DNA of 54,038 nt from a virus (lineage: Duplodnaviria > Caudoviricetes), in IMG/VR virus record IMGVR_UViG_3300048590_000251, positions 1 through 54,038 of that record. One strand, given 5' to 3'. Below, piece by piece: positions 11,931 through 50,922 of the stretch (position 1 is the stretch's first letter; every line of letters starts with the position of its first letter). Position numbers and translations under genes: made by a program. Under the pieces are notes generated by a model, which was not told where the DNA came from, did not search any database, and worked only from the letters and a program-made list of their open reading frames with translations.

Positions 11931-11978
11931 GGCGGTAGGCGGCGCAGCAGCGCAGGCCGAAAGTCACAGGAGACTGAC

Positions 11979-15694: not shown

Positions 15695-16152
15695 GCGACT
15701 TGATTCTGCCGGACAGCGTGAACTTCCGGCCGGCGTTCGATCTGAACATCTACCACCGCCGCTACGATCATTCCGCGATCGTGGTCTGGATCACATGGGA
15801 CCGCGCCACGGGTGAGCCGGTGATGGTCCTGACGCCGAACACGGATCGTCCGGGGCACGAGCGCGTCATTCCTTGCGTCGTCCCGCTCTCGACCTCGTGG
15901 ATGTGGACCGAAGAGGTGGGCGATGCGAGACACTGTGCCACTGTCGCCCCGATCTTCGTCTCCAACCTCGGGCTGAACCCGAATTCGCCGCGCCACGTCT
16001 ATGGCGTCCTCAGCACCATCCGCGGTCATCTGGAGGATCTGGTGATGTGCCCGCCGATACCGGCGGAGGACCGCAGCAAGGCCGCCGAAATGCTGATCAC
16101 AAACAACGAGACCGAGACGGTCACGCACAGGGAGGTTTCGGACTATGCGTGA
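15691..16152 (+). CDS. Hypothetical protein (153 aa)
   Basis: Coupled between terL and portal. Confidence 0.8.
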   Translation: MSDLILPDSVNFRPAFDLNIYHRRYDHSAIVVWITWDRATGEPVMVLTPNTDRPGHERVIPCVVPLSTSWMWTEEVGDARHCATVAPIFVSNLGLNPNSPRHVYGVLSTIRGHLEDLVMCPPIPAEDRSKAAEMLITNNETETVTHREVSDYA

Positions 16153-18424
16153 CGACGACGAGCAGTTTGCCAACCAGACCTATGGTGCCGAAGCGCACCG
16201 CCCCGCATTCGATGAAACGACCTCGATCCTCGACTCATGGACCGTCGATCGCGTCGCAAAGGCCGCCGGGTCAGGCCGCACCCGTCTCGACGGCGCCCAT
16301 GCCCGGAAGATCTTCAACAGGATCATGGGGCACTATCTGCGGGAACTGGACATCCAGGCCGCGAACCGGGCTCAGATGGCGACCGACGAAGATTTCGGCG
16401 ACCACGAGCAATGGACCGAAGAGGAAAAGCAGGTCCTGGCCGAGCGCGGGCAGGATCCACTGGTGTTCGATGTCATCTCGACCTCCTGCAACTGGATCAT
16501 CGGCACCGAGAAGCGGAGCCGCACGGATTTCAAGGTGCTGGCGCGACGCAAGGAAGGCACGCAGGGCGCCGAAAAGAAATCGCAGCTCCTCAAATACCTC
16601 GGAGACGTGAACCGAACCGAGTTCTCGATCAGTGACGCCTTCACCGAGACGGTCAGGGCCGGCCTGTCGTGGCTGGAAAGCGGCGTCGTGGGCGATGACG
16701 GCGACGAACCGATCTATGACCGCTACGAGTCGTGGCGCAACGTCATCTACGACAGCAAGGCGCGCGAGAAGGATCTCGGGGATGCCCGCTACATCTTTCG
16801 CCACAAATGGGCCGACCTCGACACTGTGATGGCGACGTTTCCGGATCGCGCCGGCACCGTGCTGGCGGCCACCGTTCGCGGCCTTGACATGGTGGGCGGC
16901 ATCGACTCGATGGGCGATGACGCGATGGATTCGGGCGAGGACGATCTGATCCTCGGCGGATCCATGCGAGACGAAGACTATGGCGACGGCAACCGTCAGC
17001 GCCTGCGGATCATCGAGGCGTGGTTCCGCATCCCGGTCCAGGCAGAGCGCCTGGTTGGCGGCGATTTCCATGGCGAACTGTTCGACCCTTGGTCGGACGG
17101 GCATATCGGCGAGGTCAGCGCCGGTCGCGCCCGTGTCCGCAAGAGCCTGACCCATCGTGTCTATGTCGCGGTCATGACCACCGCCGGGCTCCTGACGCTG
17201 GAGGAATCGCCCTATCGGCACAACCGATTCCCGTTCACTCCCGTCGTCTGCTACCGCCGCAGCCGCGACGGCGCGTTCTACGGCATCATCCGCGGGATGC
17301 GCGACGCCCAGCGCGACATCAACAAACGGCATTCCAAAGCGACGGCCATCCTGTCCTCGAACAAGGTCATCATGGACAAGGGTGCCGTCGATGACCTTGA
17401 CGATTTCGAGGAGGAGATCGCGCGGCCGAACTCGATCATTGTCAAGAATCCCGGCACAAATTTGACGATCAACGCCGACCGCGACCTCGCGGCCTCGCAT
17501 CTGGCGCTGATGGAAATGTCGATGCGGATGATCCAGTCGCTGAGCGGCGTCACCGACGAGAACATGGGCCGATCGACCAACGCCAAGTCCGGCATCGCCA
17601 TCCAGCGCCGACAAGAGCAGGGCGCACTGACCACCGCCACGATTTTCGACAACCTGCGCTATGCGCGCCAGGTGCATGGCGAGAAGATGCTGAGCCTGGT
17701 GGAGCAATACATGGATGAGGGCAAGCAGTTCCGCATCACCAACAAGCGCGGGTCGCCCGACTATGTGACCATCAATGACGGTGCACCGGAAAACGACATC
17801 ACGCGCACCAAGGCCAGCTACATCATCTCGGAATCCGACTTCAACGCGACGATCCGCGAAAGTCAGGTTGCCGAACTCATGGCGCTGATGTCGCAACTCG
17901 CCCCGACGGCGCCGCAGATCGTCATGGTCATGCTGGATCTGCTGGTCGAGACGATGGACATTCCGGCCCGAGACGAGATCGTCAACCGCATCCGTCAGGT
18001 GACGGGCATGGAAGACCCGGACGCGGATCCGGATCAGCCGGACCCGGATCGCGATGCCCGCAAGGCGGCGCAGAGCGCGCAACAGGAGATGCAGATGCGC
18101 GGCGCCATGGCCAGTCTGGCAAAGCTGGAGGGTGAGGCAGCGCAGAAGCAGGCACAGGCTGCGAAGGCCAAGGCCGATGCAGCGAAGGTGCTGCACTCCA
18201 TGGCTGGCACCACGATCGAACAGCAGCGCAACGCGCTCGAACTTGCTATCGCCATGCTGGGTCAGGTCGCATCCGTCGATGTGGCTGACCGCCTCTATGC
18301 CAACGCCGTGTCGGGCGGAGGCGATATGCCGCAACCGCCGCCCGACCTGGCCGCCGCAGCGCCAGCGATGCCGCAGCAGCAGCAACCCCAACCGGCGCCC
18401 ACGCCGGACATGATCCCCGCCTGA
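16145..18424 (+). CDS. Portal protein, P22-like
   Basis: QWTEEE...L.ERGQ.PL, FPFTP, YGIIRGMRDAQRDINKR, SGIAIQRRQEQG; Q/P-rich tail. Confidence 0.9.
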   Translation: MRDDDEQFANQTYGAEAHRPAFDETTSILDSWTVDRVAKAAGSGRTRLDGAHARKIFNRIMGHYLRELDIQAANRAQMATDEDFGDHEQWTEEEKQVLAERGQDPLVFDVISTSCNWIIGTEKRSRTDFKVLARRKEGTQGAEKKSQLLKYLGDVNRTEFSISDAFTETVRAGLSWLESGVVGDDGDEPIYDRYESWRNVIYDSKAREKDLGDARYIFRHKWADLDTVMATFPDRAGTVLAATVRGLDMVGGIDSMGDDAMDSGEDDLILGGSMRDEDYGDGNRQRLRIIEAWFRIPVQAERLVGGDFHGELFDPWSDGHIGEVSAGRARVRKSLTHRVYVAVMTTAGLLTLEESPYRHNRFPFTPVVCYRRSRDGAFYGIIRGMRDAQRDINKRHSKATAILSSNKVIMDKGAVDDLDDFEEEIARPNSIIVKNPGTNLTINADRDLAASHLALMEMSMRMIQSLSGVTDENMGRSTNAKSGIAIQRRQEQGALTTATIFDNLRYARQVHGEKMLSLVEQYMDEGKQFRITNKRGSPDYVTINDGAPENDITRTKASYIISESDFNATIRESQVAELMALMSQLAPTAPQIVMVMLDLLVETMDIPARDEIVNRIRQVTGMEDPDADPDQPDPDRDARKAAQSAQQEMQMRGAMASLAKLEGEAAQKQAQAAKAKADAAKVLHSMAGTTIEQQRNALELAIAMLGQVASVDVADRLYANAVSGGGDMPQPPPDLAAAAPAMPQQQQPQPAPTPDMIPA

Positions 18425-18437
18425 AAGGAGACCCACC

Positions 18438-19451
18438 ATGGCCGATCCTAAAAGCACCCCACTTGAGGACGATGATTTCCTCACCCCGCAGGAACTCGAA
18501 GCCCTGCAACTCGGCGACAATCTCGATGCCGACGGCAATCTCGTCGCGGCAGAGGAAGAACCGGAGCGCGACCTCGACAAGGAGGATGCCGCAGAGGCCG
18601 AAATTCTCGCGAAGGAAGAGGCAGAACGCGCCGCGGCGAAAGCCAGAGGCGATGAAGCCGACGAAGAGGACGCCGATGAGGCGCCCGAGCCGGAGAAGAC
18701 TCCCGCCGACTCCCCCGAGGTGAAAGCCGATACAGATCCCGCGCTTGAGGTCGATCCCGAACCGGATGATGAAGCCATCGCCGCCGCCGAAGCCGCCGCC
18801 GAGGCCGAACGGCTCGCCACGCAGGATCGTATCGAGAAAGCGGTCGCCCAGCGTGCCAGCGCCGCCAAGAAGGCGGCCATCGAGGCGTTCGAGGAAGGGC
18901 AGACGACCTCCGAGGATTTCCAGGCCGCGCTGGATGCCGTGGACGATCAGGCGAAATGGGACCGCGAGGTGTGGACCTATATCGCCGAGAACAAGGGGCT
19001 GGCGGAAGAAGGCCACGCCTACACGTTCAGCGAAGCGGTGAAGCGCGTCGGCAACGACGAGGCGAGCGACAAGCTCAGCTATCGGCAGGTTCTGGAGAAG
19101 GCGCACGACCTCTATATCGGCGCCGCCGCCGTCGCGGGGCTGACCCCCGTTCCGAAGGCGGGCGCCAAGCCCGTCGCGCCAAAGCCGTCGGCCCCGGTGA
19201 AGGCCGAACAGCCGAAGCCTGAAGCGGCAAAGCCCGCCGCTGACGCCATGCCGAAGAAGGCGACGACTCCACGGCCGCCGCCGCCGACCACCATCGCGCG
19301 TATCCCGGCCGCCGAGGACAGCCTTGTCGTGGATGGACGCTACGGGCAACTCGCCCTTCTGGCAGAGGGGGACGATCCCGAGGCGCTGGAAGCGGCTCTC
19401 GCGAAGCTCACCCCCGATCAGCAGGAAGAGTTCGCCTCGCTCGACATCTGA
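18438..19451 (+). CDS. Putative scaffolding protein
   Basis: Highly acidic, extended; located between portal and capsid. Confidence 0.75.
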   Translation: MADPKSTPLEDDDFLTPQELEALQLGDNLDADGNLVAAEEEPERDLDKEDAAEAEILAKEEAERAAAKARGDEADEEDADEAPEPEKTPADSPEVKADTDPALEVDPEPDDEAIAAAEAAAEAERLATQDRIEKAVAQRASAAKKAAIEAFEEGQTTSEDFQAALDAVDDQAKWDREVWTYIAENKGLAEEGHAYTFSEAVKRVGNDEASDKLSYRQVLEKAHDLYIGAAAVAGLTPVPKAGAKPVAPKPSAPVKAEQPKPEAAKPAADAMPKKATTPRPPPPTTIARIPAAEDSLVVDGRYGQLALLAEGDDPEALEAALAKLTPDQQEEFASLDI

Positions 19452-19464
19452 CAGGAGTCGCCTC

Positions 19465-19650
19465 GTGTTCTTCAAGGTCATCAAGGACGGCGAAACCATA
19501 CAGATCGGTGACGACGTGCTGATGTCCGTGATCCGCGCGGGCGGTGGCCGGGTGCATCTGAAATTCGATGCGCCCGCCGCCGTCCGAATCCGATCTGCTG
19601 CGGAAAAGGCCACGCTCGCGACACCGGCGACACGACGAGATGACGCATAA
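19465..19650 (+). CDS. csrA: CsrA/RsmA-like RNA-binding protein (61 aa)
   Basis: KDGETIQIGDDVLMSVIRAGGGRVHLKFDAPAAVRI matches the CsrA pattern GE...IGD.V...V.....V.I...AP..V; SD aggag before GTG at 19465. Confidence 0.8.
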   Translation: MFFKVIKDGETIQIGDDVLMSVIRAGGGRVHLKFDAPAAVRIRSAAEKATLATPATRRDDA

Positions 19651-19731
19651 AGGACACATCTTGCGGATTCTGTTTTCAGGCACCACAAGATGTGCTAAGA
19701 CTACCCCAATCTGTCTGGTGCAGGACGCGCC
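19651..19731 (+). promoter_or_regulatory. Capsid upstream region: two NrdR-like boxes, putative -10 and a GGA-loop hairpin
   Basis: aggacacatcttgcgg 19651-19666, ccacaagatgtgctaa 19683-19698, GGTGC-AGGAC-GCGCC 19717-19731. Confidence 0.65.
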
Positions 19732-19752
19732 CTCTCTCAACTGGAGGCACGC

Positions 19753-20856
19753 ATGGCCGGCACTCTGATCCCCTGGGGACACCCTTCTGCGCAGAAGAAG
19801 TGGTCCGCAGTTCTCTCCAACGACATTCGCCGTCGCGGCTATTTCAAGCGCCGCTTCATGGGCAAGGGCGAGAACAACATCATCGAGGAAAAGACCGAGA
19901 TCAAGGAGGACGCGGGCGACCGCGTGTCGTTCGACCTGTCGGTCAAGATCAGGCAGGAACCGACCGAAGGCGATGCCCGCCTCAAGGGCAAGGAGGAGCA
20001 ACTGCGGTTCTATTACGATGAGGTCATCATCGACCAGTCCCGCCATTCGGTTTCGGCAGGCGGCCGGATGAGCCGCAAGCGCACCGTCCACGACATGCGC
20101 AAGATCGGCAAGTCGAAGCTCCAGGAGTATTGGGCCGCGTTCGAGGACGAGGTGATGTTCGCTTACCTCTCCGGCGCCCGCGGCGTGAATGCCGAATTCA
20201 TCGTCACGACCGCCTGGACCGGACGCGCGGGCAACCCGCTGCAAGCGCCCGATGCCGCGCATATCCTGTTCGGCGGGGACGCCACGCAGAAAAGCGAGAT
20301 CGTCGCGGCCGACACGATGACCAAGCAACTGGTCGAGCGCGCCAACACCCACGCGAAAATGATCAGGGAATACGACCCCGACGCGCAGGAAATGGCCCCG
20401 GTGGACATCGACGGCGGCGCGCACTTCGTCATCGTCATGTCCGAGTTCCAGGCTTATGACCTGCGGCAGGAAACCGGGGTCGTCGGCTGGGCAGACATCG
20501 CCAAAGCCGCTGCCGGCGCCGAGGGCCGCAACTCGCCGATCTTCAAGGGCGGCCTGGGCATGATCGACAACACGGTCCTGCACAGCCATGGCAACGTGAT
20601 CCGGTTCTCGGACTATGGCGTCGGTGTCAACCTTCCCGCCTCCCGCGCCCTCTTCATGGGGCGCCAGGCTGGCGTCATCGCCTACGGCACGCCGAAGGGG
20701 ATGCGCTACATGTGGCAGGAAGAACTGGAGGACTTCGGCAACGAGCCGACGATCGCCGGTGGCGCCATCTGGGGCTTCAAGAAGACCCGCTTCAACGGCA
20801 AGGACTTCGGCGTCATCGCCATCGACACCTACGCCAAGAACCCGCGTCTGGGCTGA
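19753..20856 (+). CDS. Major capsid protein (DUF4043 / N4-gp56-like)
   Basis: AGDRVSFDL...EGDARLKGKEEQL...IDQSRH...KKTRFNGKDFGVI; very strong codon bias. Confidence 0.9.
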   Translation: MAGTLIPWGHPSAQKKWSAVLSNDIRRRGYFKRRFMGKGENNIIEEKTEIKEDAGDRVSFDLSVKIRQEPTEGDARLKGKEEQLRFYYDEVIIDQSRHSVSAGGRMSRKRTVHDMRKIGKSKLQEYWAAFEDEVMFAYLSGARGVNAEFIVTTAWTGRAGNPLQAPDAAHILFGGDATQKSEIVAADTMTKQLVERANTHAKMIREYDPDAQEMAPVDIDGGAHFVIVMSEFQAYDLRQETGVVGWADIAKAAAGAEGRNSPIFKGGLGMIDNTVLHSHGNVIRFSDYGVGVNLPASRALFMGRQAGVIAYGTPKGMRYMWQEELEDFGNEPTIAGGAIWGFKKTRFNGKDFGVIAIDTYAKNPRLG

Positions 20857-20863
20857 CGAGATC

Positions 20864-20889
20864 GGGGCGCCCTTCGGGGCGCCCTTCCT
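20864..20889 (+). terminator. UUCG-tetraloop hairpin after the capsid gene
   Basis: GGGGCGCCC-TTCG-GGGCGCCCT; weak U-tract. Confidence 0.6.
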
Positions 20890-20934
20890 GACAACGACAG
20901 GGCCAGCACCGCCCGAACCCAAGGAGACACAAGC

Positions 20935-21387
20935 ATGGCCCTGAAGCGCACCACGATCGCCAAAGGCACCGCCCCCGTCCTGACGTCGTATGCGTCGGGA
21001 CTTGTCATGGTCCAGAGGGCACGTTTCGCCTTCACCGAGACATTCACCGCCGCGTCCGACAAGCTGGAGATGTTCTGCCTCCCCGCCGGGTGCGTCCCCA
21101 TCCGGTTCACCATCTGGGGCACCGGCGGTTCGCTCGGCACCCTCAACGTGGTGGCCGGCCTGGTTACGGGCGATTTCGGAAGTGATGACAACGCCCGCAC
21201 CGTCGGCGCGGAAATCCTCACCGCCACCGCCATCGGCTCCAGCGCGGTGGTCGAGGCGACGAAACCGCTGCTGGACCTGATTGCGGCAGACCAGACCAAG
21301 CATCGCGGCGTCGGCATCACGCTCTCCGCCAACGTTTCGGCCGGGGTTCTCGGGATCTCCGCCGCGATGGAATACGTCGCCGTCTGA
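20935..21387 (+). CDS. Virion structural protein (possible minor capsid)
   Basis: Follows the capsid gene; SD aaggag; beta-rich with an LPAG motif. Confidence 0.75.
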   Translation: MALKRTTIAKGTAPVLTSYASGLVMVQRARFAFTETFTAASDKLEMFCLPAGCVPIRFTIWGTGGSLGTLNVVAGLVTGDFGSDDNARTVGAEILTATAIGSSAVVEATKPLLDLIAADQTKHRGVGITLSANVSAGVLGISAAMEYVAV

Positions 21388-28388: not shown

Positions 28389-28673
28389 ATGACTTTCGAT
28401 CATCTGCCCCTGCTCGTCCTCGTCGTCCTGGTGATCCTCGACACGATCACCACGATCCGCGCCCTGCGCAGCCCGAGCCTGCGGGAGGCCAACCCGATCC
28501 TCGCATGGGCGATGCGGCACGGCCGGGTCTGGATTGCCCTGAAACTGGCGGTCAGCACCGGTGCGATCTGGCTGCTGCGCGACCAAACCAACCCCGTCAC
28601 TTTCTGGATGACTTGCGGTGTCGCGGCGCTCTATGCTGCGGTCGTCGCCAGCAACATCCACCATACCCGCTGA
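28389..28673 (+). CDS. Small membrane protein (DUF5658-like)
   Basis: LDTITT...REANPIL; three hydrophobic segments. Confidence 0.7.
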   Translation: MTFDHLPLLVLVVLVILDTITTIRALRSPSLREANPILAWAMRHGRVWIALKLAVSTGAIWLLRDQTNPVTFWMTCGVAALYAAVVASNIHHTR

Positions 28674-28686
28674 CGGAGGCCGTCAC

Positions 28687-29148
28687 ATGATCGTCACCTT
28701 CAAGTTGCAGGAGAGACTTCTCGCATGGGCGGCGCCCCGGTGCGATACCCATGAGTGGCCGAAAGAGAGCGTGGCCTTGGGCGTGATCGACCCGACAGGC
28801 GGCCGCATCCGCGCGGTCGTCGTCATCAATGCCCGCTACGGGCACACCCTCGCCATGCACATCGCCAGCGACGGCAGCCGCGCATGGGCGACGGAGGCCG
28901 TTCTGAGGTCCATCTTCACCTATGCCTTCGACACGCTCCAGGCGGGCCGGATCAACGCCGTCATCGCCGAGCGCGACATCAAGACAACGATCATGGCCCT
29001 CAAGCTGGGGTTCCGCATGGAGGGGACACTCAAGTCTGGTGCAAATGACGGCAGCGATGGTATACTGATGCGGATGTTGGCGCAGGAGTGCCCGTGGATC
29101 GAACACGAGGTTACTCCACATGGGCAAGAAATCCCCGCCGCCCGCTGA
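28687..29148 (+). CDS. GNAT-fold protein in the virion module
   Basis: MHIASDG...IFTYAFDTL...KLGFRMEGTL. Confidence 0.8.
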   Translation: MIVTFKLQERLLAWAAPRCDTHEWPKESVALGVIDPTGGRIRAVVVINARYGHTLAMHIASDGSRAWATEAVLRSIFTYAFDTLQAGRINAVIAERDIKTTIMALKLGFRMEGTLKSGANDGSDGILMRMLAQECPWIEHEVTPHGQEIPAAR

Positions 29149-30741: not shown

Positions 30742-33119
30742 GTTTCTTCGATGGAGCGGTGTCCGGGTTCTTCGCCGGGCGGGATTGGCGCGAAGGCAGA
30801 GATGCCCGCAAGCGTCAGCGTGAACTTGCGGAGATCGAGGAAAACCGACGCGCCGAAGAGTTCGGGTGGCGCCGGGATGAGCAGAAATTCCGCGTCGATA
30901 CCCTCTCCGCCCAGAAACGCGCCCGCGAACAGGCCGAGAAAGACGCCGAGGAAGAGCGAAAGGCGTTTGCCGAAGCCTACGGGGACGCCAAGGCGGCATC
31001 CGAGGGCGATGCGGGCACAGAGGCCGGGCCCGGCGCCCCTGACCCCAATGTCGCGCCGGACACGCCTGCCGGCGAGAGCACGAGCCCGCAATCGGTGCGC
31101 GAGATCACCGCAGGGCGGTCTGCGCCTGCTTATGGCGACGTTGCCCCTCCGAGGCCGCAGAAGCCGCCGGCCATTGTCAGCGATGCCCCGTCGATCGGCG
31201 CCTCTCTCGCGTCCGGGCCGGACGCGCCGCAAATGCCGGCCATGCCCGATATGCCGATCCCGCGACAGGGAGGGAAGGCGCTGCACCCGCCCTATCTCGA
31301 TCCGGCGCCCAACGTGCCGCCGCCGGACGGAAAGACCGGGCGTGTGGTCTTCGCGGAGTCGAGTGGTCTTCCGCAGCCCTATATCGCCAAAGCCCGCGAA
31401 TTTGACGCCTTGCAGGCGTGGCTTGAGCGCGGAGTCAGCACCGATACCGGGCAGCCGCTCAGCGAGACCGAGCGCGCCAGCGCGATTGCACGGCTGGCCG
31501 AGTTCGACCGGACGCTGCGCGGCGCCGCCGACCAGGTGGCAGAGGCAACTGGAGGCAGAAAGAGCGTTGCCCCGTCGCAGGAGATGGCCCACAGACCGCA
31601 GCGCATCGGCGACCGGCCTTCCACCTATGCGCCGGACGCGGCTCCCGCCGCGCCACAACCGCCGCGACCCATACCATCGGACGGGCTTGGCCCCCGTGCC
31701 GCCTTCGCCGAGGGCAACGGACTCGACGCGCAGACGGTCCTGATGGCGCAGGAAGCCGACAGGATGGAGGCCATGTTGCAGGATTCCGCGATGGAACCCA
31801 ACATGCGCAAGACTGTCGAGGCACGCCTCGCCGCACATGAAGAGCGACTCAACGGAGCCGCGCTCGCCGCCGGAATTGCCCCGCCGCGCGATCCGCGCGC
31901 CACGGATGCCGCCGTTCTCGACCAGCGCGCCCCGCCGCCGCAAATGGCCGTGGTGCCTGCCGGGATGCCGTCTCCGCCGCCAGATACCGCGATGGATGCC
32001 GGGTTTGTGCGTCCCGCTCCGGAGGAGAAGGTAAGCCGGGAGGCGCGGATCACCAGGCCCGACCTGCCGATCCCGCGTCCCCGTCCAGCGACCGTGGGCG
32101 GCGTCCGGGTTCCGTTTGGAGAGAAAGGCGCGGTGGACGCGCCGCCGGTGGTGGATGGGCCGCCTGCGGGCCCCGTGAGCAGCGCGCCGCCGGCCGCCGC
32201 CCAGCCCCCGTCCGATCCGGCTGCACCGCAACCCATCGCGCAGACCCCGCCGCCGCCGCAGGCAGCGCCTGACGGCGTTCCGTTGACGGAGCAGGGAACA
32301 CCGGCAACATCGGTCGATGCGGCGCAGGCGACCGCGCCGAAGCGCGATCACCCCGCGAAGAAGGGCGTGATCGGAGAGGGGATGCCGGTCAAGGCCACGC
32401 AGAAGCAACGCGAAAAGGCGGGCAAGGACTTCCTGACCTACTACGCCGAGAAGGGCGCGCCCAGGATCATCGAACACTACCTGAAGACCGGGCAGGTCGA
32501 GAAGGCTGTCGCGTTCCGGGATTTCATCCAGGACGAGCAGGTGAAGGCGGGGATGAAGAGCTGGTCGATGGCAGCTCACGCCGCAGCGATCGGAGATGAC
32601 GAAGGGTTCGTCAAGTATCTGGCCGAAGCCTACAACAGGCGCGGCTATTTCGATGACGGGTTCTCCGTCGTGGCAGAGGACTCCGGCCTGATCCGCGACA
32701 AGAGCGGCAGCGTAACCGGCGCCCAGATCACCTACAAGAAGGACGGCACCGGCGAAATATTCGTGGAGAAGGTCGATTCTCTCGATAACCTCTACGAGCA
32801 GGGACTCTGGATGCTGTCACCGGAGAAGATATTCGAGACAGGGTGGAACGATGTCCAAGCGGGCAGGGCCGCGCGGGCTGAAGTGACCAAGAAACTGGCG
32901 GAGGCGGGTCTCCCCGCCACACGAGCGAAGGCGGTCCTCGACACAATGGAAAAACTCTCGAAGTCGAACCTCAACTTCTCGCAACTGCCAGTGGAGGAAC
33001 AGGTGTCGCAGGCCATCGCCTTCCTTGATAGTGGCGGCGCCACGCCGACACCACCTTCCGCCACCGCATCCGGCGTCGGCGCCAACCCGCAGGGCGGCAG
33101 CCTGCCCTTCTACAACTGA
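30738..33119 (+). CDS. Internal virion/ejection protein, Pro-rich centre
   Basis: GTGA coupling with SD ggagg; lies directly before the giant gene. Confidence 0.75.
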   Translation: MSFFDGAVSGFFAGRDWREGRDARKRQRELAEIEENRRAEEFGWRRDEQKFRVDTLSAQKRAREQAEKDAEEERKAFAEAYGDAKAASEGDAGTEAGPGAPDPNVAPDTPAGESTSPQSVREITAGRSAPAYGDVAPPRPQKPPAIVSDAPSIGASLASGPDAPQMPAMPDMPIPRQGGKALHPPYLDPAPNVPPPDGKTGRVVFAESSGLPQPYIAKAREFDALQAWLERGVSTDTGQPLSETERASAIARLAEFDRTLRGAADQVAEATGGRKSVAPSQEMAHRPQRIGDRPSTYAPDAAPAAPQPPRPIPSDGLGPRAAFAEGNGLDAQTVLMAQEADRMEAMLQDSAMEPNMRKTVEARLAAHEERLNGAALAAGIAPPRDPRATDAAVLDQRAPPPQMAVVPAGMPSPPPDTAMDAGFVRPAPEEKVSREARITRPDLPIPRPRPATVGGVRVPFGEKGAVDAPPVVDGPPAGPVSSAPPAAAQPPSDPAAPQPIAQTPPPPQAAPDGVPLTEQGTPATSVDAAQATAPKRDHPAKKGVIGEGMPVKATQKQREKAGKDFLTYYAEKGAPRIIEHYLKTGQVEKAVAFRDFIQDEQVKAGMKSWSMAAHAAAIGDDEGFVKYLAEAYNRRGYFDDGFSVVAEDSGLIRDKSGSVTGAQITYKKDGTGEIFVEKVDSLDNLYEQGLWMLSPEKIFETGWNDVQAGRAARAEVTKKLAEAGLPATRAKAVLDTMEKLSKSNLNFSQLPVEEQVSQAIAFLDSGGATPTPPSATASGVGANPQGGSLPFYN

Positions 33120-33156
33120 TCCGACCCGTTGCCCTCTCAGACGAAAGAGTGACCCT

Positions 33157-36100
33157 GTGGCCGACAACATCTTCGCCAAGAACCCTCTGGATGCCACCCT
33201 GGAGGGCATGACCGCCCTGAAAACGCCGCCGCAAAGCCCGCGCGCGGCGTTCGAGGCCGCGTCGCGCTCCAGCGGAGTGCCGATCAACATTCTGCTGGCG
33301 GCAGCGGAAGCCTCGGGGGCGAAGACGGGAGAGGATGCCATCCGCGTCGTAGAGGCTGTGTCCGGAGAGTGGGGCGGCAGGATCAGGGCCGGGGAACCGA
33401 TCGAGCGCGTCGTCGGCGCGACCCTTGGTGGCGACGAGGCGGCGACGGCACAGTTTCTGGACCGCGCCCGCGCTCTCGGCCGGGAGTATTACCCCGATCT
33501 GGCGCCGAAGGAGCCGGGTTTCGTCGGCAATGTCGGGCGGGTTCTCGGCGCCTCTCTGGTGCGCGGCGGCGGAATGGCCGCCGAAGGTGTTGCCAATGCG
33601 GCGGCCTCCGCCATGGACAGCCAGCGCGCCATCCTCGGTGGGATCGGCGATGCCGCCCGCAAGGCCGCCGATGCCCTCGGGGTCAAGGACTTCGGCGGCT
33701 ACGTTGCCGACGAACTCGGCGTCACCACAGCCGCGGAATGGGCAGACCGGGGCGCCAGAGAGGCCGCTGATCGGGCGCAGGATGCCGGACGCTTCGTCGG
33801 CGACGCCGCCGCAGACAAATCGGACAGCATCCGGGAAGGTCTGTCCGACCGCGCCAGGCAGGCAATGGCGGGCAGCACCCCTGACGGGGTGATCTACGAC
33901 CCGCGGACATGGAGTCTCGGCGAGAACGCATCGTTGGAGGGCTACACCTATCACGCCGTCGATGTGCTGGGATCCCTGATCCCCGTCATTCTCGCCGGGA
34001 TCGCCACGGGCGGTATCGGAGCGGCGGCAGTCGGCGCCGCCATGGGCGGCGGCGAGGGCTCGCAGACCGCGCGGCAAGTGGTCGATGAGGCTTACAAGAA
34101 CGGCACCCTCGACCAATCGCCGATGTTCAGGCGTCTGGTCGCGGAAGGCGCCAGCCCGGACGATGCCTATGACCGAGTGCGCCGCGAGGCAGCCAAGGCC
34201 GGGACGCTGTTCCAGGCCCCGGTGAGCGCCTTCGGCGGATACGCCACCGCCTCGATCGTCAAGGGAACGGTCGGAAAGGCCGTCGGCGGTGGGATCATGC
34301 GCCGCGCCATTGCCTCCGGCGTGGCCTCGGCCGCCGAGGAGGGCTTGCAGGAGGCGGCGGAAACCGTCTCCGCAAACCTTGGCATCAAGGCCACGACTGG
34401 CCTGAAAATCAACATCGCCGACGGCACGTTCGGCGATTTCGTCTTGGGCGCCATCGGCGGCGCCGGTCCGGGCGCGGTCGGTGGGGCGCTTGGGCGGGGT
34501 CATGCCGGTGATCCGTCCAGGCGGCCGCCTGTCGCGGCACCCCCCCAGGAACCACCGGAGCCGGAGCCGGATGGGGGCATTCCCGCGGCAGGCGGTCAAC
34601 AACCCGTTCCAGCGGCGCCCGACCTCGCGCCCGAGCCGTCGCCGCTCCGGGATGCCGCCCGCGCCGCACCGCCGCCGGCCGCCGGAGATATCGCGCCGGG
34701 GTCGCGCGTCATCCTGAAATCCTCCGACAGCGCGCCTCCCGGCGAGCGTGTCCCCGACATGACCGGAACCTTTGTCGGCGAAAAGGGCCGCATGGTCCTG
34801 ATTGCCGACGAGGACGGAGAGGTTGTCGAGATTCCGCGCAACGCTTTCGATCTGGGAGCAGTGTCGATGCAGGCACTTGCGCTAGATCCGATGCTGCCGG
34901 AAACAGACGCGCCGGCCGATCCGGAGGCTCCGCCGCAGCCAGATATGGCTCAAGCGCCCCAGCCTGACCTTCAGCCGCCCGCGCCGGCCGCAGAGGTGCC
35001 GCCGCCGCAAGAAATTCCGCCGGCCGTAGATGTGTCTCCCGCTCCGGACGTCCCCGAGGATGTGGTGCGCCGCCGCTTGCGCATGATCGAGGATATCGCC
35101 AAACGCGACGGATGGACCGCCGATCTGATCGCCCAGCGAGACGCAGCCCGTGAGGCAGTCGCCAGAATTGGCGCGTCCATGGGCGTGGGTCCGGAACCCA
35201 GGCCACCGAACCCAGAGACGGAGGATACAGGCGATGTGGTTGAACCTGGACGAGCTTCAGAGGGACAGGGTGATCACGGCGTGGGAAGCGACCGCGCTGC
35301 GCCAGTGGCTCGACTCCCCGACGCCGGAAGTCCTGCCGAAGGAATGCCCGCTGTCAGAGATCCTGAACCGGATCCGCCTCCATCAATGGACCCCGGACCG
35401 CGCGCACTGACTCAGGAGACTGCGGAGAAGAAGACGGTCACGCCCGATCTGGTGACGGTTCGGGATGTCTACGGCAAGAGACACCGCGTGAGAAAGCCGG
35501 ATCTGGACGGCGACCGGGCCATGCTGCCCACGTTCAACGCCAATGGCGAAAGGACGAATGGCACGCTGCTGCACCGCGACAACATCGACCCGGACGGGTC
35601 CGGGGTGCGCGCCACCTACGCATCCGCGCCTTACATCGCCAAGGAAAATGACCGGCCGTTCGCGACCGAGGCGGCGGCGAAGGCCGCTGTGCGACACGTC
35701 AATCAGGATTTGGCGGATTTCAAAATCAAGCCGGTCAATGGCGGCTTTGTCGCGGTGCGCAAGAAGGCAAAACCGGACGCGGAGACGGCGCCAGAGACCC
35801 CGGATGCCCTTTCGATCGAGGATATCCGCACCAAGGCGGCGATCCTGCGCGGCTGGACCGGCGACAAGCCGCCCGTGGTCGACGGCGTGCTGTTTTCCCA
35901 CGATGTGAAGGCGGGCGGGTATACCTTCTCCCGCAAGCACAAGGAGAAGGTCGGGGCGGCGCTCAAGGTGGGTGCGAAGCCCGCGGCAGGCGAACCCCTG
36001 ACGGGCGAGATCATCACCCCGGAAGATGACGCGGAAGCGCGGCGCAAGGCGGCCACTTCGGTCGGCATCGAGCTGACCGATGCGCCGTTGCCGGTGCGCG

Positions 36101-49129: not shown

Positions 49130-49197
49130 TTTGCCGCCGCCCGTCTCTGTGCTATTTCTACCGGAGGTATCGTGCAGGACGCGCGCTTCAGGAAAGC
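49130..49197 (+). promoter_or_regulatory. Putative lysis promoter and two GGA-loop hairpins
   Basis: TTTGCC-N16-CTATTT; CGTGC-AGGAC-GCGCG 49171-49185; GCTT-CAGGA-AAGC 49185-49197. Confidence 0.55.
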
Positions 49198-49205
49198 AGC
49201 GTTCG

Positions 49206-49421
49206 GTGACGATCGACATACCCAGCCTCCTTTCTGCATACGGACTCCCCGGCCTCATCATCGGGGTTCTGCTCTATGCCGTCAGCGCGCTCTGGTCACG
49301 GAGCAATGTCGTGCAGGATGCCCGGATCGAGGACGGCAAGGCCGAGGCGCAAAGAACGCTTGAAATCACCCGGACACTGGAACGGGCCATCGCCGTCGTG
49401 GAGGGCCGCAACCGTGCTTGA
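49206..49421 (+). CDS. Holin-like membrane protein
   Basis: YGLPGLIIGVLLYAVSALW transmembrane segment; first gene of the lysis cassette. Confidence 0.6.
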   Translation: MTIDIPSLLSAYGLPGLIIGVLLYAVSALWSRSNVVQDARIEDGKAEAQRTLEITRTLERAIAVVEGRNRA

Positions 49422-49599: not shown

Positions 49600-49988
49600 A
49601 CTTTCTGAGCGGAATTTCCGGAATCCTCGCCTCTGTCACGATGTTGTTGGTGGCGCGGGGTTTTGTGCCCTATCTGCGCTGGCGGATCTGGGACGATATT
49701 GCCTACATGCGTCTGTCCATCGTGTTGCTGTCGGCATTGTCTGTGACGCGCATGGCCTGGTGGGACGTGCTGCGCCCGGCGATGGGTAGCGCGATGCTGA
49801 TGAAGCCGTTTCGCCCCGACATTCTCAGCCAGTCGATCAACGCCGGCTTCAACCTGCTGACGCTGGCCGCAGCGGTGGCGGCGCTTGCGGCCCTGCACCA
49901 CTCTATCCCGCTTCGCTTTCGCAACCGATACAACTGGTTCACCGCTCCGTTCTATCCACCGCACCAACCGAGGGAGACCGACAAGTGA
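49596..49988 (+). CDS. Three-TM membrane protein (holin candidate)
   Basis: Three hydrophobic segments; GTGA coupling. Confidence 0.65.
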   Translation: MNFLSGISGILASVTMLLVARGFVPYLRWRIWDDIAYMRLSIVLLSALSVTRMAWWDVLRPAMGSAMLMKPFRPDILSQSINAGFNLLTLAAAVAALAALHHSIPLRFRNRYNWFTAPFYPPHQPRETDK

Positions 49989-50266
49989 AGATCGCCCTCG
50001 CCCTGATCTTTCTCGCCGCCCCGGTCGTCGCCGCACCCGTCTGCGCGCCGCGCGATGTGATCCAGCGCGTGCTGGTCGATCGCTACGGCGAGACGCCGCG
50101 GGTGGCCGGGCTGACGCCGGATGGCGCGCTGATGGAGGTCTACGGCAGCGAAGCCGGATCGTGGTCCGTCACCGTCACGGCGCCCGACGCCAGCCAGACC
50201 TGCGTGATTGGCGCCGGGGTGGCGCTGATGATCCTGCCGGCGGAAAAGAAGGGGAGCCTGAACTGA
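49985..50266 (+). CDS. Small secreted protein
   Basis: Signal peptide; CAPRD...YGE...GSWSV...TC with two Cys. Confidence 0.75.
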   Translation: MKIALALIFLAAPVVAAPVCAPRDVIQRVLVDRYGETPRVAGLTPDGALMEVYGSEAGSWSVTVTAPDASQTCVIGAGVALMILPAEKKGSLN

Positions 50267-50922
50267 TGGACTTCCAGGGCAAGGCCGAACGGCTGGCAGA
50301 CATCGACATTCCGCGCATCGGACACCGGATCGGCGTCGGCGAGGATGAAATCCATGCGGTGATGGACGTGGAGGCGCGGTCCTCGGGGTTCGACGGTGCC
50401 GGCCGTCCCGCCATGCTGTTCGAGCCACATATCTTCTGGCGCCAGCTTGGCCCCGGTGCGGCCCGCGAGGCCGCCGCCCGTGCAGGACTTGCCTATGCGT
50501 CATGGGGCGCCAAGCCATATCCGAAGGACAGCTACCCACGCCTTGAGGCGGCCATGGGTATCGAGGAGAACGCTGCGCTGCGCTCCTGCTCCTGGGGTCT
50601 CGGGCAGATCATGGGCTTCAACGCCGAACTGGCTGGATACCAGAACGCCTCTGCGATGGTCGAGGCGTTCAAGGACAGCGAAACCGCGCAGATGGATGCG
50701 ATGGTGCGTTTCATCGAGGCTGCGGGTCTGGACGACGAGTTGCGGCGCCACGATTGGGCGGGTTTCGCCAGAGGCTACAACGGCCCCGGCTACGCGAAGC
50801 ACGGCTACGACCGCAGGCTGGCCGAGCGGTTCCGCTGGTGGCAGGGCAAGCCCGATACGCCGTGGTCGCCCGCAAGCATGGGCTGCGCCTGCCCGCACCC
50901 CGACGAGGTGGTGCCCGGATGA
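50266..50922 (+). CDS. Endolysin, N-acetylmuramidase (DUF3380)
   Basis: AVMDVE...LFEPHIFWR...SCSWGLGQIMGFN...WAGFARGYNGPGY. Confidence 0.92.
   Translation: MDFQGKAERLADIDIPRIGHRIGVGEDEIHAVMDVEARSSGFDGAGRPAMLFEPHIFWRQLGPGAAREAAARAGLAYASWGAKPYPKDSYPRLEAAMGIEENAALRSCSWGLGQIMGFNAELAGYQNASAMVEAFKDSETAQMDAMVRFIEAAGLDDELRRHDWAGFARGYNGPGYAKHGYDRRLAERFRWWQGKPDTPWSPASMGCACPHPDEVVPG

What the first reader, a model, noticed from the sequence alone, without database searches (positions are those of the whole stretch)
19450..19752. Phage CsrA-like protein with candidate cognate RNA sites: a phage-internal post-transcriptional circuit
Seen: a 61-aa CsrA-like gene directly before the capsid gene. Its own SD lies in GAC-AGGA-GTC (19450-19459). 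The capsid leader has GGTGC-AGGAC-GCGCC, adjacent to and partly competing with a CCTCT/GGAGG stem that hides the SD. Similar GGA loops occur at 11962, 13210, 49171 and 49185. Established: CsrA/RsmA dimers bind GGA in hairpin loops, and most Alphaproteobacteria lack a chromosomal Csr system. Inference: the phage supplies its own regulator to time capsid, packaging and lysis translation. Caveats: SDs contain GGA anyway, and the N-terminus (FFKVIK) and C-terminus diverge from CsrA.
Basis: partly seen in the sequence, partly recalled or inferred. Interest (0 to 1): 0.8.

Follow-up and report, generated by a model that had tools for sequence, protein, structure and literature searches.

The report
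Phage CsrA gene with capsid-leader hairpin
This phage and well over a hundred relatives carry a small CsrA-type RNA-binding gene next to the capsid gene, together with a conserved RNA hairpin in the capsid message that looks like its binding site, which suggests the phage sets the translation of its own shell protein.

Summary
The 61-aa ORF 19465-19650 belongs to the CsrA family: Pfam 34 bits against a cut-off of 27, family profile vs RsmE E 9e-14, and CsrA fold at TM 0.77-0.86. Its position after the scaffold gene is already annotated in Bcep22-like phages. What I found in no paper is the RNA side. The stems covary and keep a conserved G.U pair. In most relatives the loop and 3' half can instead pair with the bases just before the AUG. 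Cognate pairings are 5.2 kcal/mol better than non-cognate ones, which indicates a fold-back that hides the start site. A second copy sharing the same 13-mer lies at 49171-49185, before the lysis cassette. The GGA sites at 19450, 11962 and 13210 do not exceed chance. Protein-RNA binding is untested, and the window's protein lacks L4 and R44. In the window itself the fold-back is not significant. Three earlier notes of this scan describe the same module on other DNA.

The parts
18438..19451 (+). scaffold-like gene (337 aa), directly after the P22-type portal gene 16145-18424
   Evidence: phrog_8246; portal PF16510 E 1.6e-175. In Rhizobiales prophages the csrA-like gene stays attached to this gene even when the capsid gene lies about 30 kb away.
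19450..19459 (+).
   Evidence: The sequence is present. The stem has 3 bp and is not in the MFE; the region folds worse than shuffles, z +1.86. Treated as an ordinary SD.
19465..19650 (+). csrA-like gene, 61 aa, GTG start
   Evidence: Pfam PF02599 34 bits (cut-off 27), E 2.9e-8. PHROG 9500 'CsrA-like regulator'. Family profile vs RsmE 2JPP E 9.2e-14 over positions 1-47. AF2 pLDDT 85.7. Foldseek top 10 all CsrA/RsmA/RsmE, TM 0.77-0.86 for full-length chains.
19652..19696 (+). long stem-loop right after the csrA stop codon (9-bp core CACAUCUUG/CAAGAUGUG); carries two further GGA at 19652 and 19665
   Evidence: MFE of 19651-19770, z -1.99 for the whole 120 nt. No terminator or sigma-70 promoter was called. 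Function unknown.
19717..19731 (+). capsid-leader hairpin A: GGUGC / loop AGGAC / GCGCC, 22-36 nt upstream of the capsid ATG
   Evidence: -7.2 kcal/mol alone. Best hit of covariance model R1 in the window, 20 bits, E 0.0078; the window was in the training set. Counterparts in 71 of 89 distinct leaders of relatives. Covariation.
19743..19747 (+). capsid SD GGAGG, a second GGA 21 nt after the loop GGA; start codon at 19753
   Evidence: In the MFE, GGAG pairs with CCUC 19731-19734 and CGC 19750-19752 pairs with GCG 19727-19729. Not significant against shuffles.
19753..20856 (+). major capsid gene (367 aa)
   Evidence: PF13252 E 2.3e-53. 60% identity to Bcep22 and Ralstonia GP4-type capsids. 63-66% identity to Rhodobacterales prophages.
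49171..49185 (+). second copy of hairpin A: CGUGC / AGGAC / GCGCG; the outer pair is changed on both sides relative to the capsid copy
   Evidence: second-best hit in the window, 14.6 bits, E 0.18. Shared 13-mer present in 3 of 300 shuffles. Folds alone at -6.0 kcal/mol.
49190..49421 (+). SD AGGAAAG (49190-49196) and a 71-aa ORF with an N-terminal hydrophobic segment (GTG 49206 to stop 49421). First gene of the putative lysis cassette; hairpin at -35..-21 of its start.
   Evidence: Stop-to-stop frames, sequence. No family hit. The start codon and the holin role are inferred.
49885..50922 (+). ORF containing the endolysin (N-acetylmuramidase)
   Evidence: PF11860 E 1e-52, residues 155-319. phrog_1224 endolysin E 6.2e-79.

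Best explanation
The 61-aa protein is a phage-borne member of the CsrA/RsmE family. It is made from the portal-scaffold operon and acts in trans on the phage's own late messages. Its proposed operator is the small A(N)GGA-loop hairpin in the 5' leader of the capsid mRNA (19717-19731), with a second copy before the lysis cassette (49171-49185). In most relatives the loop and 3' half of that hairpin can instead pair with the bases just upstream of, or including, the start codon. That alternative is the thermodynamically preferred state, and it hides the ribosome-binding region. I therefore commit to activation. Binding of the CsrA-like dimer to the hairpin loop, possibly together with the GGA in the SD, holds the leader in the hairpin form. 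This frees the start site, so capsid (and lysis) translation is licensed only once the portal-scaffold-csrA operon has been expressed.

Shown: family membership and fold; conservation and covariation of the hairpin; covariation of the fold-back; co-occurrence of gene and hairpin.

Inferred: that the protein binds the hairpin, and the sign of the effect. In the window itself only the hairpin and the two-GGA geometry are seen. The fold-back there is weak.
For: Protein. Pfam CsrA is above its cut-off. The profile of 51 family members matches RsmE/CsrA chains at E 9e-14 to 2e-9 over positions 1-47, with consensus L2, L4, K7, V40, I42 and R44 as in RsmE. The AF2 model superposes on CsrA/RsmA/RsmE at rmsd about 1 A over 50 residues.

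Synteny. A family member lies upstream of the capsid gene in 71 of 88 loci and in 22 of 36 further loci. In the Rhizobiales clade that lacks it there, 4 of 5 genomes carry it 28-37 kb away, directly after the scaffold-like gene, while the capsid leader keeps the hairpin.

Hairpin. The motif with a stem of >=4 bp occurs in 71 of 89 distinct leaders. Shuffles give 1.12+-0.96 (max 5), the reverse complement 0, coding windows 0-2, and outgroups without the adjacent gene 0 of 9. In 28 hairpins with 5-nt loops, 83.2% of cells are paired against 72.3% shuffled, and the covariation score is 0.314 against 0.140 (0 of 500 shuffles for each); slid controls give 20-55%. An independent set of 27 hairpins with 4-nt loops gives 76.2 vs 68.5% and 0.265 vs 0.149 (0 of 500). 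A G.U pair is kept in 26 of 28 and 24 of 27 sequences, so the element is read on the mRNA strand.

Fold-back. It beats 95% of shuffles in 57 of 82 leaders, mean z -2.73. Cognate duplexes are 5.2 kcal/mol better than non-cognate ones, and better than 90% of them in 49 of 82. The loop pairs with the RBS in the MFE in 63 of 82 leaders. The median cost of forcing the hairpin is 7.9 kcal/mol. RBS pairing is 0.72 in the MFE and 0.54 with the hairpin forced.

Loop shape. GGA in the loop of a short hairpin, plus a second GGA at the SD, is the canonical CsrA/RsmE target (Duss 2014, PMC4005645, passages). CsrA activating translation by opening an SD-sequestering structure has a precedent in ymdA (PMC7492729, abstract).

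Protein-RNA association. R44 occurs in 29 of 34 rows with GGA loops and in 1 of 20 with UGA/AGA/CGA loops.

Second copy. It has the same geometry before the lysis cassette.
Against: No binding or expression data exist. Gene and hairpin are both clade-wide, so their co-occurrence amounts to roughly one evolutionary event plus the outgroup contrast.

The R44/GGA association reduces to about 5 independent changes on the capsid tree. Only 2 independent pairs lie on well-supported branches, so it is not significant. Further prophages add GGA loops without R44 (L124, L094, L114, L118, L116; read by eye). In RsmE, Arg44 contacts the loop backbone or stacks on the A; it does not read the first G.

The window's own protein has K4 and S44. 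It reaches only 27.6 bits against the 70.1-bit cut-off of the CsrA equivalog model.

In the window the fold-back test fails: z 0.07, rank 0.43, and the 61-nt fold has z -0.35.

The two-GGA geometry, 21 nt apart with one site on the SD, is also the classical repressor layout.

The second copy was not found near the lysis genes of the 4 nearest prophages.

A third CM hit, at 29081-29094, proved to be coding-constrained and is not conserved as a hairpin in 21 relatives. Single hits of this small model therefore mislead.
Confidence: 0.35

Rival explanations
1. Classical CsrA-type repression. The dimer bridges the GGA in the hairpin loop and the GGA in the SD, blocks 30S binding, and limits or delays capsid (and lysis) translation. 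This could, for example, keep the capsid:scaffold ratio right or hold lysis back.
For: The window has exactly this layout: loop GGA at 19723 and SD GGA at 19744, 21 nt apart, and likewise 49177 and 49191. In the first set of relatives, 33 of 60 distinct intergenic regions also have a GGA within 15 nt of the start, alongside the loop motif (read). Most characterised CsrA targets are repressed (PMC7492729, abstract). In the window the fold-back that activation would need is not significant.
Against: Repression does not explain why a start-site-hiding fold-back that uses the very loop bases is conserved and covaries in most relatives. With the leader already closed by default, a repressor would be redundant. 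Many relatives have no GGA in the SD (GAGG or GAGGG).
Confidence: 0.22
2. The leader element works without the CsrA-like protein. It would be a cis-acting 5' stem-loop and fold-back that sets mRNA stability or a co-transcriptional folding window for ribosome loading. The CsrA-like protein would then act on other targets (host mRNAs, other phage genes) or be an accessory 'moron'.
For: In 35 of 93 upstream regions of relatives, a near-consensus TTGCAA-N17-GATAAT promoter ends about 15-20 nt before the hairpin. The hairpin would therefore sit at the very 5' end of the capsid mRNA, where stem-loops protect against decay (the protective role is general knowledge). Loop variation (GGA, UGA, AGA) is fully accounted for by pairing with the bases before or in the AUG. 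The gene-hairpin link is clade-wide rather than repeatedly tested by evolution. The JC1 authors file the gene as a moron (PMC9144972, passages).
Against: The gene is a fixed member of the portal-scaffold block in hosts that have no Csr system. Sobrero & Valverde note the same for Burkholderia (PMC7366521, passages). This argues for a phage-internal job. The loop keeps A-N-G-A, and in 34 of 54 rows a full GGA, in a 4-6 nt loop closed by C-G, which is the known CsrA/RsmE target shape. The one genome with no family match (Ciceribacter, L112) is also the one whose loop has lost the GA; this is n=1 and the genome may be incomplete.
Confidence: 0.25
3. The CsrA-fold protein is a virion or assembly component with no regulatory role.
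For: Its position is inside the head-morphogenesis block. One unique peptide was found in CsCl-purified JC1 virions (PMC9144972, passages).
Against: There was a single peptide, and the authors call the result unconfirmed. The family consensus keeps the RNA-contacting positions of RsmE. Nothing explains the co-resident hairpin.
Confidence: 0.05

Closest known systems
CsrA/RsmA/RsmE translational regulators with A(N)GGA hairpin operators (e.g. RsmE bound to the hcnA SD, PDB 2JPP; RsmE-RsmZ stem-loops, 2MF0 series)
   Same: Same family by HMM and fold. The candidate operator is a 4-6 nt A(N)GGA-type loop on a short stem, with a second GGA at the SD.
   Different: The gene is carried by a phage whose likely hosts lack a Csr system. 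The proposed target is the phage's own capsid and lysis mRNA. No sponge RNA was found: Rfam gave nothing above threshold. The window's protein has K4/S44 instead of L4/R44. About a third of relatives use UGA, AGA or CGA loops.
[quoted passage not shown] 2020, PMC7492729; abstract read)
   Same: Two CsrA sites in a 5' leader, where binding destabilises a structure that blocks ribosome binding. This is the mechanism proposed here.
   Different: ymdA is a host gene under a global regulator. Here a dedicated regulator and operator travel together in a phage morphogenesis module. Activation here is inferred from structure conservation only.
Annotated 'CsrA-like regulator' / 'carbon storage regulator' genes of Bcep22-like phages (Bcep22 gp54, Gervaise gp09, DC1, JC1 gp47, GP4)
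   Same: Homologous gene at the same place, after the scaffold gene and before the capsid gene. The capsids are 58-61% identical.
   Different: The literature I could read treats it as a moron or as a possible host or CRISPR manipulator. None of the papers found describes the leader hairpin. This window is an alphaproteobacterial-type member with a divergent protein: only 36 relatives at E<=0.001 among 1.8 billion representatives.
Phage Mu Com activating mom translation (recalled; no paper read)
   Same: A small phage protein binds a leader hairpin and thereby opens a neighbouring structure that hides the start site.
   Different: Com is a zinc-finger protein unrelated to CsrA. The comparison is one of logic only.

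Membership tests
CsrA/RsmA family (Pfam PF02599) | HMM score above the curated gathering cut-off | tested here: met
   34 bits against 27, E 2.9e-8, positions 7-42 of 53. 32.8 bits in the six-frame search.
CsrA/RsmA family (Pfam PF02599) | CsrA fold: five strands and a C-terminal helix | tested here: met
   AF2 with 51 sequences, pLDDT 85.7; strands 11-14, 18-26, 29-35 and helix 45-51. Strands 1 and 5 are not called in a monomer. Foldseek ranks 1-10 are all CsrA/RsmA/RsmE, probability 1.00, TM 0.74-0.86 for full-length chains.
CsrA/RsmA family (Pfam PF02599) | Interdigitated homodimer that forms the two RNA-binding faces | not testable with these tools
Needs SEC-MALS, cross-linking or a structure.
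CsrA/RsmA family (Pfam PF02599) | RNA-contact residues of strands 1 and 5 (L2, L4, R/K7, V40, V/I42, R44 in RsmE numbering) | tested here: inconclusive
   The consensus of the 51-member phage family keeps L2, L4, K7, V40, I42 and R44. The window's protein has F2, K4, K7, V40, I42, R43 and S44. Its nearest relatives have R43 with N44 (P0003; L124).
CsrA/RsmA family (Pfam PF02599) | Sequence-specific binding to GGA in hairpin loops | not testable with these tools
   Only indirect evidence: a conserved candidate site and the R44/GGA association, which is not significant after tree correction.
Bacterial CsrA proper (NCBIfam TIGR00202 / NF002469 equivalogs) | Score above the equivalog cut-off | tested here: not met
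   27.6 bits against 70.1, and 27.0 against 73. It is a family member, not an equivalog of the host global regulator.
Bcep22-like phage head module with csrA-like gene | Order portal - scaffold - csrA-like - capsid, with a giant virion-protein gene downstream | tested here: met
   portal, capsid; 5364-aa ORF 33025-49119; same order annotated in Bcep22 and Gervaise.
Known RNA families (Rfam 15) | Leader matches a curated RNA family | tested here: not met
   Nothing at gathering thresholds in the whole window. In 19300-19900 only chance-level hits, E 0.26 and 1.

The most novel reading that the evidence does not exclude
A phage-encoded CsrA-family protein is a dedicated translational activator. 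It captures a 5' hairpin of the capsid mRNA (and, in this phage, of the lysis-cassette mRNA) and so prevents a conserved fold-back from burying the start codon. Shell and lysis protein synthesis would then depend on prior expression of the portal-scaffold operon. Within the family, protein and operator have re-tuned each other, from R44 with GGA loops to other residues with UGA/AGA loops. That would make it a natural series of orthogonal CsrA-operator pairs working in hosts that have no Csr system.
Probability: 0.3. Interest if true: 0.85.

Novelty: new variant of a known kind. Interest (0 to 1): 0.7.

Why it matters
Phage csrA genes have been catalogued since 2011-2020, but their role is still called untested. 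The CRISPRi-ART paper of 2025 says so while reporting small plaques after knock-down of one such gene (PMC11879866, passages). Published ideas centre on host manipulation. This work gives the gene a concrete, testable target inside the phage: a covarying leader switch on the capsid message, shared by a large clade infecting Burkholderia, Ralstonia, Pseudomonas, Rhizobiales and Rhodobacterales. If confirmed, it would be a protein-operated RNA switch controlling virion assembly order. It would also be a case of CsrA working without any host Csr circuitry, and a source of compact, possibly orthogonal, translational regulator-operator pairs.

Tried and rejected
1. Complex prediction with two copies of the protein gave 'no answer' (score 0.30, mark 0.42). 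This is no evidence either way on dimerisation.

2. The look-up of sequencing runs listed no RNA holder, so nothing can be said on expression or 5' ends. Only DNA contigs were laid. Between 19451 and 19752 they differ from the window at 19545 (third codon position) and 19711 (6 nt before the hairpin). These are too few differences to test conservation.

3. The CM hit at 29072-29099 (GGCGC-AGGA-GUGCC, 26-39 nt before ATG 29120 of a virion protein, phrog_8003) is rejected. In 21 relatives the stretch encodes the C-terminus of the upstream acyltransferase and does not form the hairpin.

4. The whole-genome search of five host genomes with the 29-position model gave only background, 26-50 matches per genome. 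It is unusable.

5. I looked for a second copy of each relative's own hairpin core (<=2 mismatches) in 30-60 kb around four related prophages. None was convincingly placed before lysis genes.

6. Direct searches with the 61-aa protein found nothing in INPHARED phages or IMG/VR, and 2 close relatives in the 5.8-billion collection. Relatives had to be reached through the capsid gene.

7. MAFFT alignment of hairpins with mixed loop lengths misplaced the 3' halves. Loop-length classes were therefore analysed separately.

8. Tree-corrected test of the R44/GGA link: too few independent pairs.

9. Whether phage PTXU04 (knock-down phenotype) belongs to this clade was not established; it did not appear among 40 listed hits of 47.

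10. The Gill et al. 2011 Bcep22 paper is not held. Supplementary tables listing csrA-positive phages (PMC7366521, PMC8450108) were not seen and might hold further members.

11. Literature searches: no paper holds CsrA + bacteriophage + major capsid + translational + hairpin. None of the listed titles or abstracts describes the leader element. That is the basis for 'not in print', within that library only.
Full report
WHAT IS IN THE WINDOW. The window is a 54,038-bp IMG/VR virus record, estimated 88% complete. Around the finding the + strand carries four genes in order:
- a P22-type portal gene (16145-18424; PF16510, E 1.6e-175);
- a scaffold-like gene (18438-19451);
- a 61-codon ORF with a GTG start (19465-19650);
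- the major capsid gene (19753-20856; PF13252, E 2.3e-53).

A 5364-aa ORF (33025-49119) and an endolysin (PF11860 within 49885-50922) lie downstream. The capsid is about 60% identical to those of Burkholderia Bcep22-like and Ralstonia GP4/Gervaise-like podophages. It is 63-66% identical to prophages of Rhodobacterales (Pararhodobacter, Roseinatronobacter, Yoonia, Salipiger). The host is therefore probably an alphaproteobacterium, though this is not shown.

THE PROTEIN. The ORF matches Pfam CsrA at 34 bits against a cut-off of 27, and PHROG 9500 'CsrA-like regulator'. It aligns without gaps to residues 7-43 of solved CsrA/RsmE chains. It stays far below the cut-offs of the bacterial CsrA equivalog models (27.6 vs 70.1 bits). 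It is also an outlier in sequence space: 36 relatives at E<=0.001 among 1.84 billion representatives.

I built a profile from 51 syntenic phage and prophage homologues (A5). It matches RsmE (2JPP) at E 9.2e-14 over positions 1-47, and the family consensus keeps L2, L4, K7, V40, I42 and R44. An AlphaFold2 model (pLDDT 85.7) has CsrA/RsmA/RsmE as its ten best PDB matches (TM 0.74-0.86 for full-length chains, rmsd about 1 A over 50 residues).

The window's own protein deviates at two positions. It has K4 and S44, with R43. Its nearest relatives have R43 with N44. Arg44 of RsmE contacts the loop backbone or stacks on the A of A(N)GGAX (Duss 2014, PMC4005645, passages). That L4 and R44 are the most damaging alanine substitutions in E. 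coli CsrA is recalled, not checked.

WHAT WAS ALREADY KNOWN. RefSeq annotates a 'CsrA-like regulator' at this same place in Bcep22 and Gervaise. From the papers I read passages only:
- The JC1 paper calls it a moron and reports one peptide in virions (PMC9144972).
- Sobrero & Valverde list 30 csrA-positive phages, including GP4, DC1 and F116, and note that Burkholderia hosts lack csrA (PMC7366521).
- Campa et al. propose that such genes manipulate host CRISPR-Cas (PMC8450108).
- The CRISPRi-ART paper states that the role of CsrA in a phage life cycle had not been tested, and reports small plaques after knock-down in phage PTXU04 (PMC11879866).

The gene and its position are therefore known. 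I found no description of an RNA target.

THE GENE IS A FIXED PART OF THE HEAD MODULE. Using the capsid as a handle, I collected 80 IMG/VR loci and 32 prophage loci. A family member lies upstream of the capsid gene in 71 of 88 loci. The 17 misses break down as follows: 4 are distant capsids (about 25% identity), 7 have under 450 nt of upstream sequence, and 6 have enough sequence but no gene. Among 36 further loci, 22 have it. Those misses include 5 outgroups (L089, L090, L092, L122, L123), a Rhizobiales clade of 8, and L120.

For 5 genomes of that Rhizobiales clade I searched the whole genome. Four have a family member 28-37 kb away on the other strand, directly after a scaffold-like ORF. The gene thus stays with portal and scaffold, while the capsid gene sits elsewhere. 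That arrangement fits a trans-acting product.

More distant relatives with the same capsid fold have no csrA next to the capsid. These are the Stx phages and Vibrio D96a. In F116 the gene lies further down the structural module.

THE CAPSID-LEADER HAIRPIN. The intergenic regions of the relatives show the same object at -72 to -25: a stem whose inner pairs are nearly always GCGC/GUGC, closing a 4-6 nt loop A(N)GA(N). Loops seen include AGGA, AGGAC, AGGAU, AUGGAU, AUGAU and AAGAC.

Counts are as follows.
- The motif with a stem of >=4 bp is present in 71 of 89 distinct leaders.
- Dinucleotide shuffles give 1.12+-0.96 (maximum 5 in 200).
- The reverse complement gives 0.
- Five windows inside capsid genes give 0-2.
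- Outgroup leaders give 0 of 9.

Covariation was tested in two non-overlapping sets.
- For 28 hairpins with 5-nt loops aligned without gaps, 83.2% of cells pair against 72.3+-2.1% after shuffling (0 of 500). The covariation score is 0.314 against 0.140 (0 of 500), and slid registers give 20-55%. The outer pairs change on both sides in 10 and 12 sequences.
- A set of 27 hairpins with 4-nt loops gives 76.2 vs 68.5% and 0.265 vs 0.149 (0 of 500 each).

The caveat stated by the tool applies: related sequences can beat the shuffles without structure. The slid controls and the two-sided changes argue against that here. The conserved G.U pair (26 of 28; 24 of 27) and the empty reverse strand place the element in the mRNA, not in duplex DNA. 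Rfam has no matching family.

A SECOND, COMPETING HELIX. In most relatives the loop plus the 3' half of the hairpin is complementary to the bases just before the start codon. In the AUGA-loop group the complementarity includes the AUG itself. Examples read are GGAUGUGC/GCACAUCC-AUG (Bcep22 type), GGAGCUGCC/GGCAGCUCC-AUG and CAUGACGUG/CACGUC-AUG.
- The duplex is stronger than 95% of shuffled partners in 57 of 82 distinct leaders, mean z -2.73.
- Each leader's own partner is on average 5.2 kcal/mol better than partners from unrelated leaders. It beats 90% of them in 49 of 82 and the median in 76 of 82.
- In minimum-free-energy folds the hairpin itself appears in 1 of 82 leaders, whereas the loop pairs with the -12..+3 region in 63 of 82.
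- Forcing the hairpin with an open loop costs a median of 7.9 kcal/mol. It lowers pairing of the ribosome-binding region from 0.72 to 0.54.

Two mutually exclusive conserved structures, one of which hides the start site, make up a switch. Loop-sequence variation is thus constrained by the fold-back as well as by any protein.

THE WINDOW ITSELF IS A WEAK EXAMPLE. The hairpin folds on its own at -7.2 kcal/mol. The fold-back test fails there (z 0.07; rank 0.43). That fold is no better than shuffles (z -0.35). What the window does show is the two-site geometry: a loop GGA and an SD GGA 21 nt apart.

- Own SD (19450-19459): a 3-bp stem that is not in the MFE, in a region less structured than shuffles.
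- 11962 and 13210: SDs in weak stems. Such GGA-loop hairpins are as common as chance allows (243 vs 247+-14; 116 vs 98+-9.6).
- 49171: real. CGUGC-AGGAC-GCGCG shares a 13-mer with the capsid hairpin, and that 13-mer was present at all in 3 of 300 shuffles. The outer pair is changed on both sides. It is the second-best model hit in the window.
- 49185/49191: this is the SD (AGGAAAG) of a 71-aa ORF starting at GTG 49206. That ORF has an N-terminal hydrophobic stretch and is followed by another membrane ORF and the endolysin.

The hairpin therefore sits at -35..-21 of the first gene of the probable lysis cassette. That is the same geometry as at the capsid gene, within 1 nt. In its MFE the loop GGACGC pairs with GCGUUC just before the start. 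I could not find an equivalent second copy in the four nearest prophages.

A third model hit, at 29081-29094, is a coding-sequence coincidence.

DOES THE PROTEIN BIND THE HAIRPIN? This is inferred, and rests on five lines.
1. The loop has the shape of a CsrA/RsmE target.
2. Gene and hairpin occur together throughout the clade and are both absent from the outgroups. That amounts to about one evolutionary event.
3. When the gene is moved 30 kb away, both are still retained.
4. The one genome without a family match (L112) is also the one whose loop has lost the GA. This is n=1, and the genome may be incomplete.
5. Residue 44 follows the loop: R44 occurs in 29 of 34 rows with GGA loops (1 K, and 4 others that all have R43) and in 1 of 20 rows with UGA/AGA/CGA loops.

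On the capsid tree the loop state changes at least 5 times and R44 at least 7 times. Only 2 independent pairs lie on well-supported branches, so no significance can be claimed. The prophage set adds GGA loops without R44 (read by eye). The defensible statement is that R44 almost always goes with GGA, while non-R44 proteins go with either.

MECHANISM. I commit to activation (about 0.35). The leader closes itself by default. The CsrA-like dimer, made with portal and scaffold, captures the 5' hairpin as it is transcribed and keeps the start site open. The precedent is CsrA at ymdA (PMC7492729, abstract).

A near-consensus sigma-70-type promoter (TTGCAA-N17-GATAAT) lies in front of the hairpin in 35 of 93 relatives. 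None was called in the window. With such a promoter, a default-off leader that needs a phage protein would make sense.

Classical two-site repression (about 0.22) fits the window's geometry at least as well, but it leaves the conserved fold-back unexplained. A protein-independent cis element (about 0.25) remains fully possible. A structural role for the protein is unlikely (about 0.05).

EARLIER NOTES OF THIS SCAN. After my analysis I looked up earlier notes. Three describe the same module on other genomes:
- e1-5948519: a hairpin that stands alone or buries the start codon, found in about 100 relatives, always with the csrA-like gene;
- e1-5867588: a repeated motif before the capsid, giant-protein and lysis genes;
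- e1-5849030: a Bcep22-like phage with hairpins in the scaffold and capsid leaders.

They agree with what I found independently here. In this window I see the capsid and lysis copies. There is none before the giant ORF, and no scaffold leader exists because the gap there is only 13 nt.

VERDICT. The gene is a known kind at a known place. The conserved, covarying leader switch that travels with it is not in the papers I could search, and it gives the gene a testable target. Binding and direction remain to be shown, and the window's own protein and fold-back are the weakest members of the series.

Noticed in passing
window 19652-19696: A strong stem-loop (9-bp core plus extensions) starts 2 nt after the csrA stop codon and carries GGA at 19652 and 19665. 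No terminator or promoter was called. Its 3' arm (CCACAAGAUGUGCUA) resembles a CCACAACAU(C/A)UGGUA motif seen upstream of the hairpin in several alphaproteobacterial-type relatives.
   Followed up: partly
L003, L015, L020, L046, L069 and others, about -120 to -65 from the capsid ATG: A near-consensus sigma-70-type promoter TTGCAA-N17-GATAAT lies between the csrA-like gene and the capsid gene in 35 of 93 distinct upstream regions. It ends about 15-20 nt before the hairpin, so the hairpin would be at the very 5' end of the capsid mRNA.
   Followed up: partly
L099, L102-L105, L110-L112 (Rhizobiales prophages); L125-L128: The head module is split. The capsid gene, with promoter-like motif and hairpin, lies 28-37 kb from the portal-scaffold-csrA block, on the opposite strand.
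   Followed up: partly
L112 (Ciceribacter prophage), capsid leader: This is the only one of five Rhizobiales genomes with no csrA-family match. It is also the only one whose hairpin loop lacks the GA (AUCAA instead of AUGA). It is a single case, and the genome may be incomplete.
   Followed up: no
family alignment, position 44 (RsmE numbering) vs hairpin loop: Finer pattern within the non-GGA loops. AUGAU loops go with N or H at position 44. AAGAC loops go with G at position 44 in three of four rows and K in the fourth. The single ACGAC loop has K. The pattern is confounded by phylogeny.
   Followed up: partly
window 33025-49119: A 5364-aa ORF, the giant virion-associated protein typical of Bcep22-like phages. 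It is larger than the roughly 4600-aa Bcep22 protein; that size is recalled, not checked.
   Followed up: no
window 28389-29148: Two small accessory genes lie between tail/virion genes: a DUF5658 membrane protein (28389-28673) and an acyl-CoA N-acyltransferase (28687-29148, phrog_4470). The latter corresponds to the 'moron' acetyltransferase described for JC1.
   Followed up: partly
L089 (Pseudomonas phage F116) 6729-6935: F116 carries its CsrA-like gene inside the structural module but about 2 kb downstream of the capsid gene. Its capsid gene follows the preceding gene by 12 nt, with no leader hairpin.
   Followed up: no
window 18400-21000 in runs X1-X4: Near-identical phage DNA is present in contigs of seawater and wastewater metagenome runs. 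One 24-kb contig spans the stretch with 24 differences. Only two fall between 19451 and 19752, and neither lies in the hairpin or SD. One of these runs may be the window's own source.
   Followed up: partly
G008 contig C243:2842-2988 (Yoonia MAG): A second PF02599 match (37.8 bits) lies on another contig of a host genome that already carries the prophage copy. Its context was not examined; it could be another prophage.
   Followed up: no
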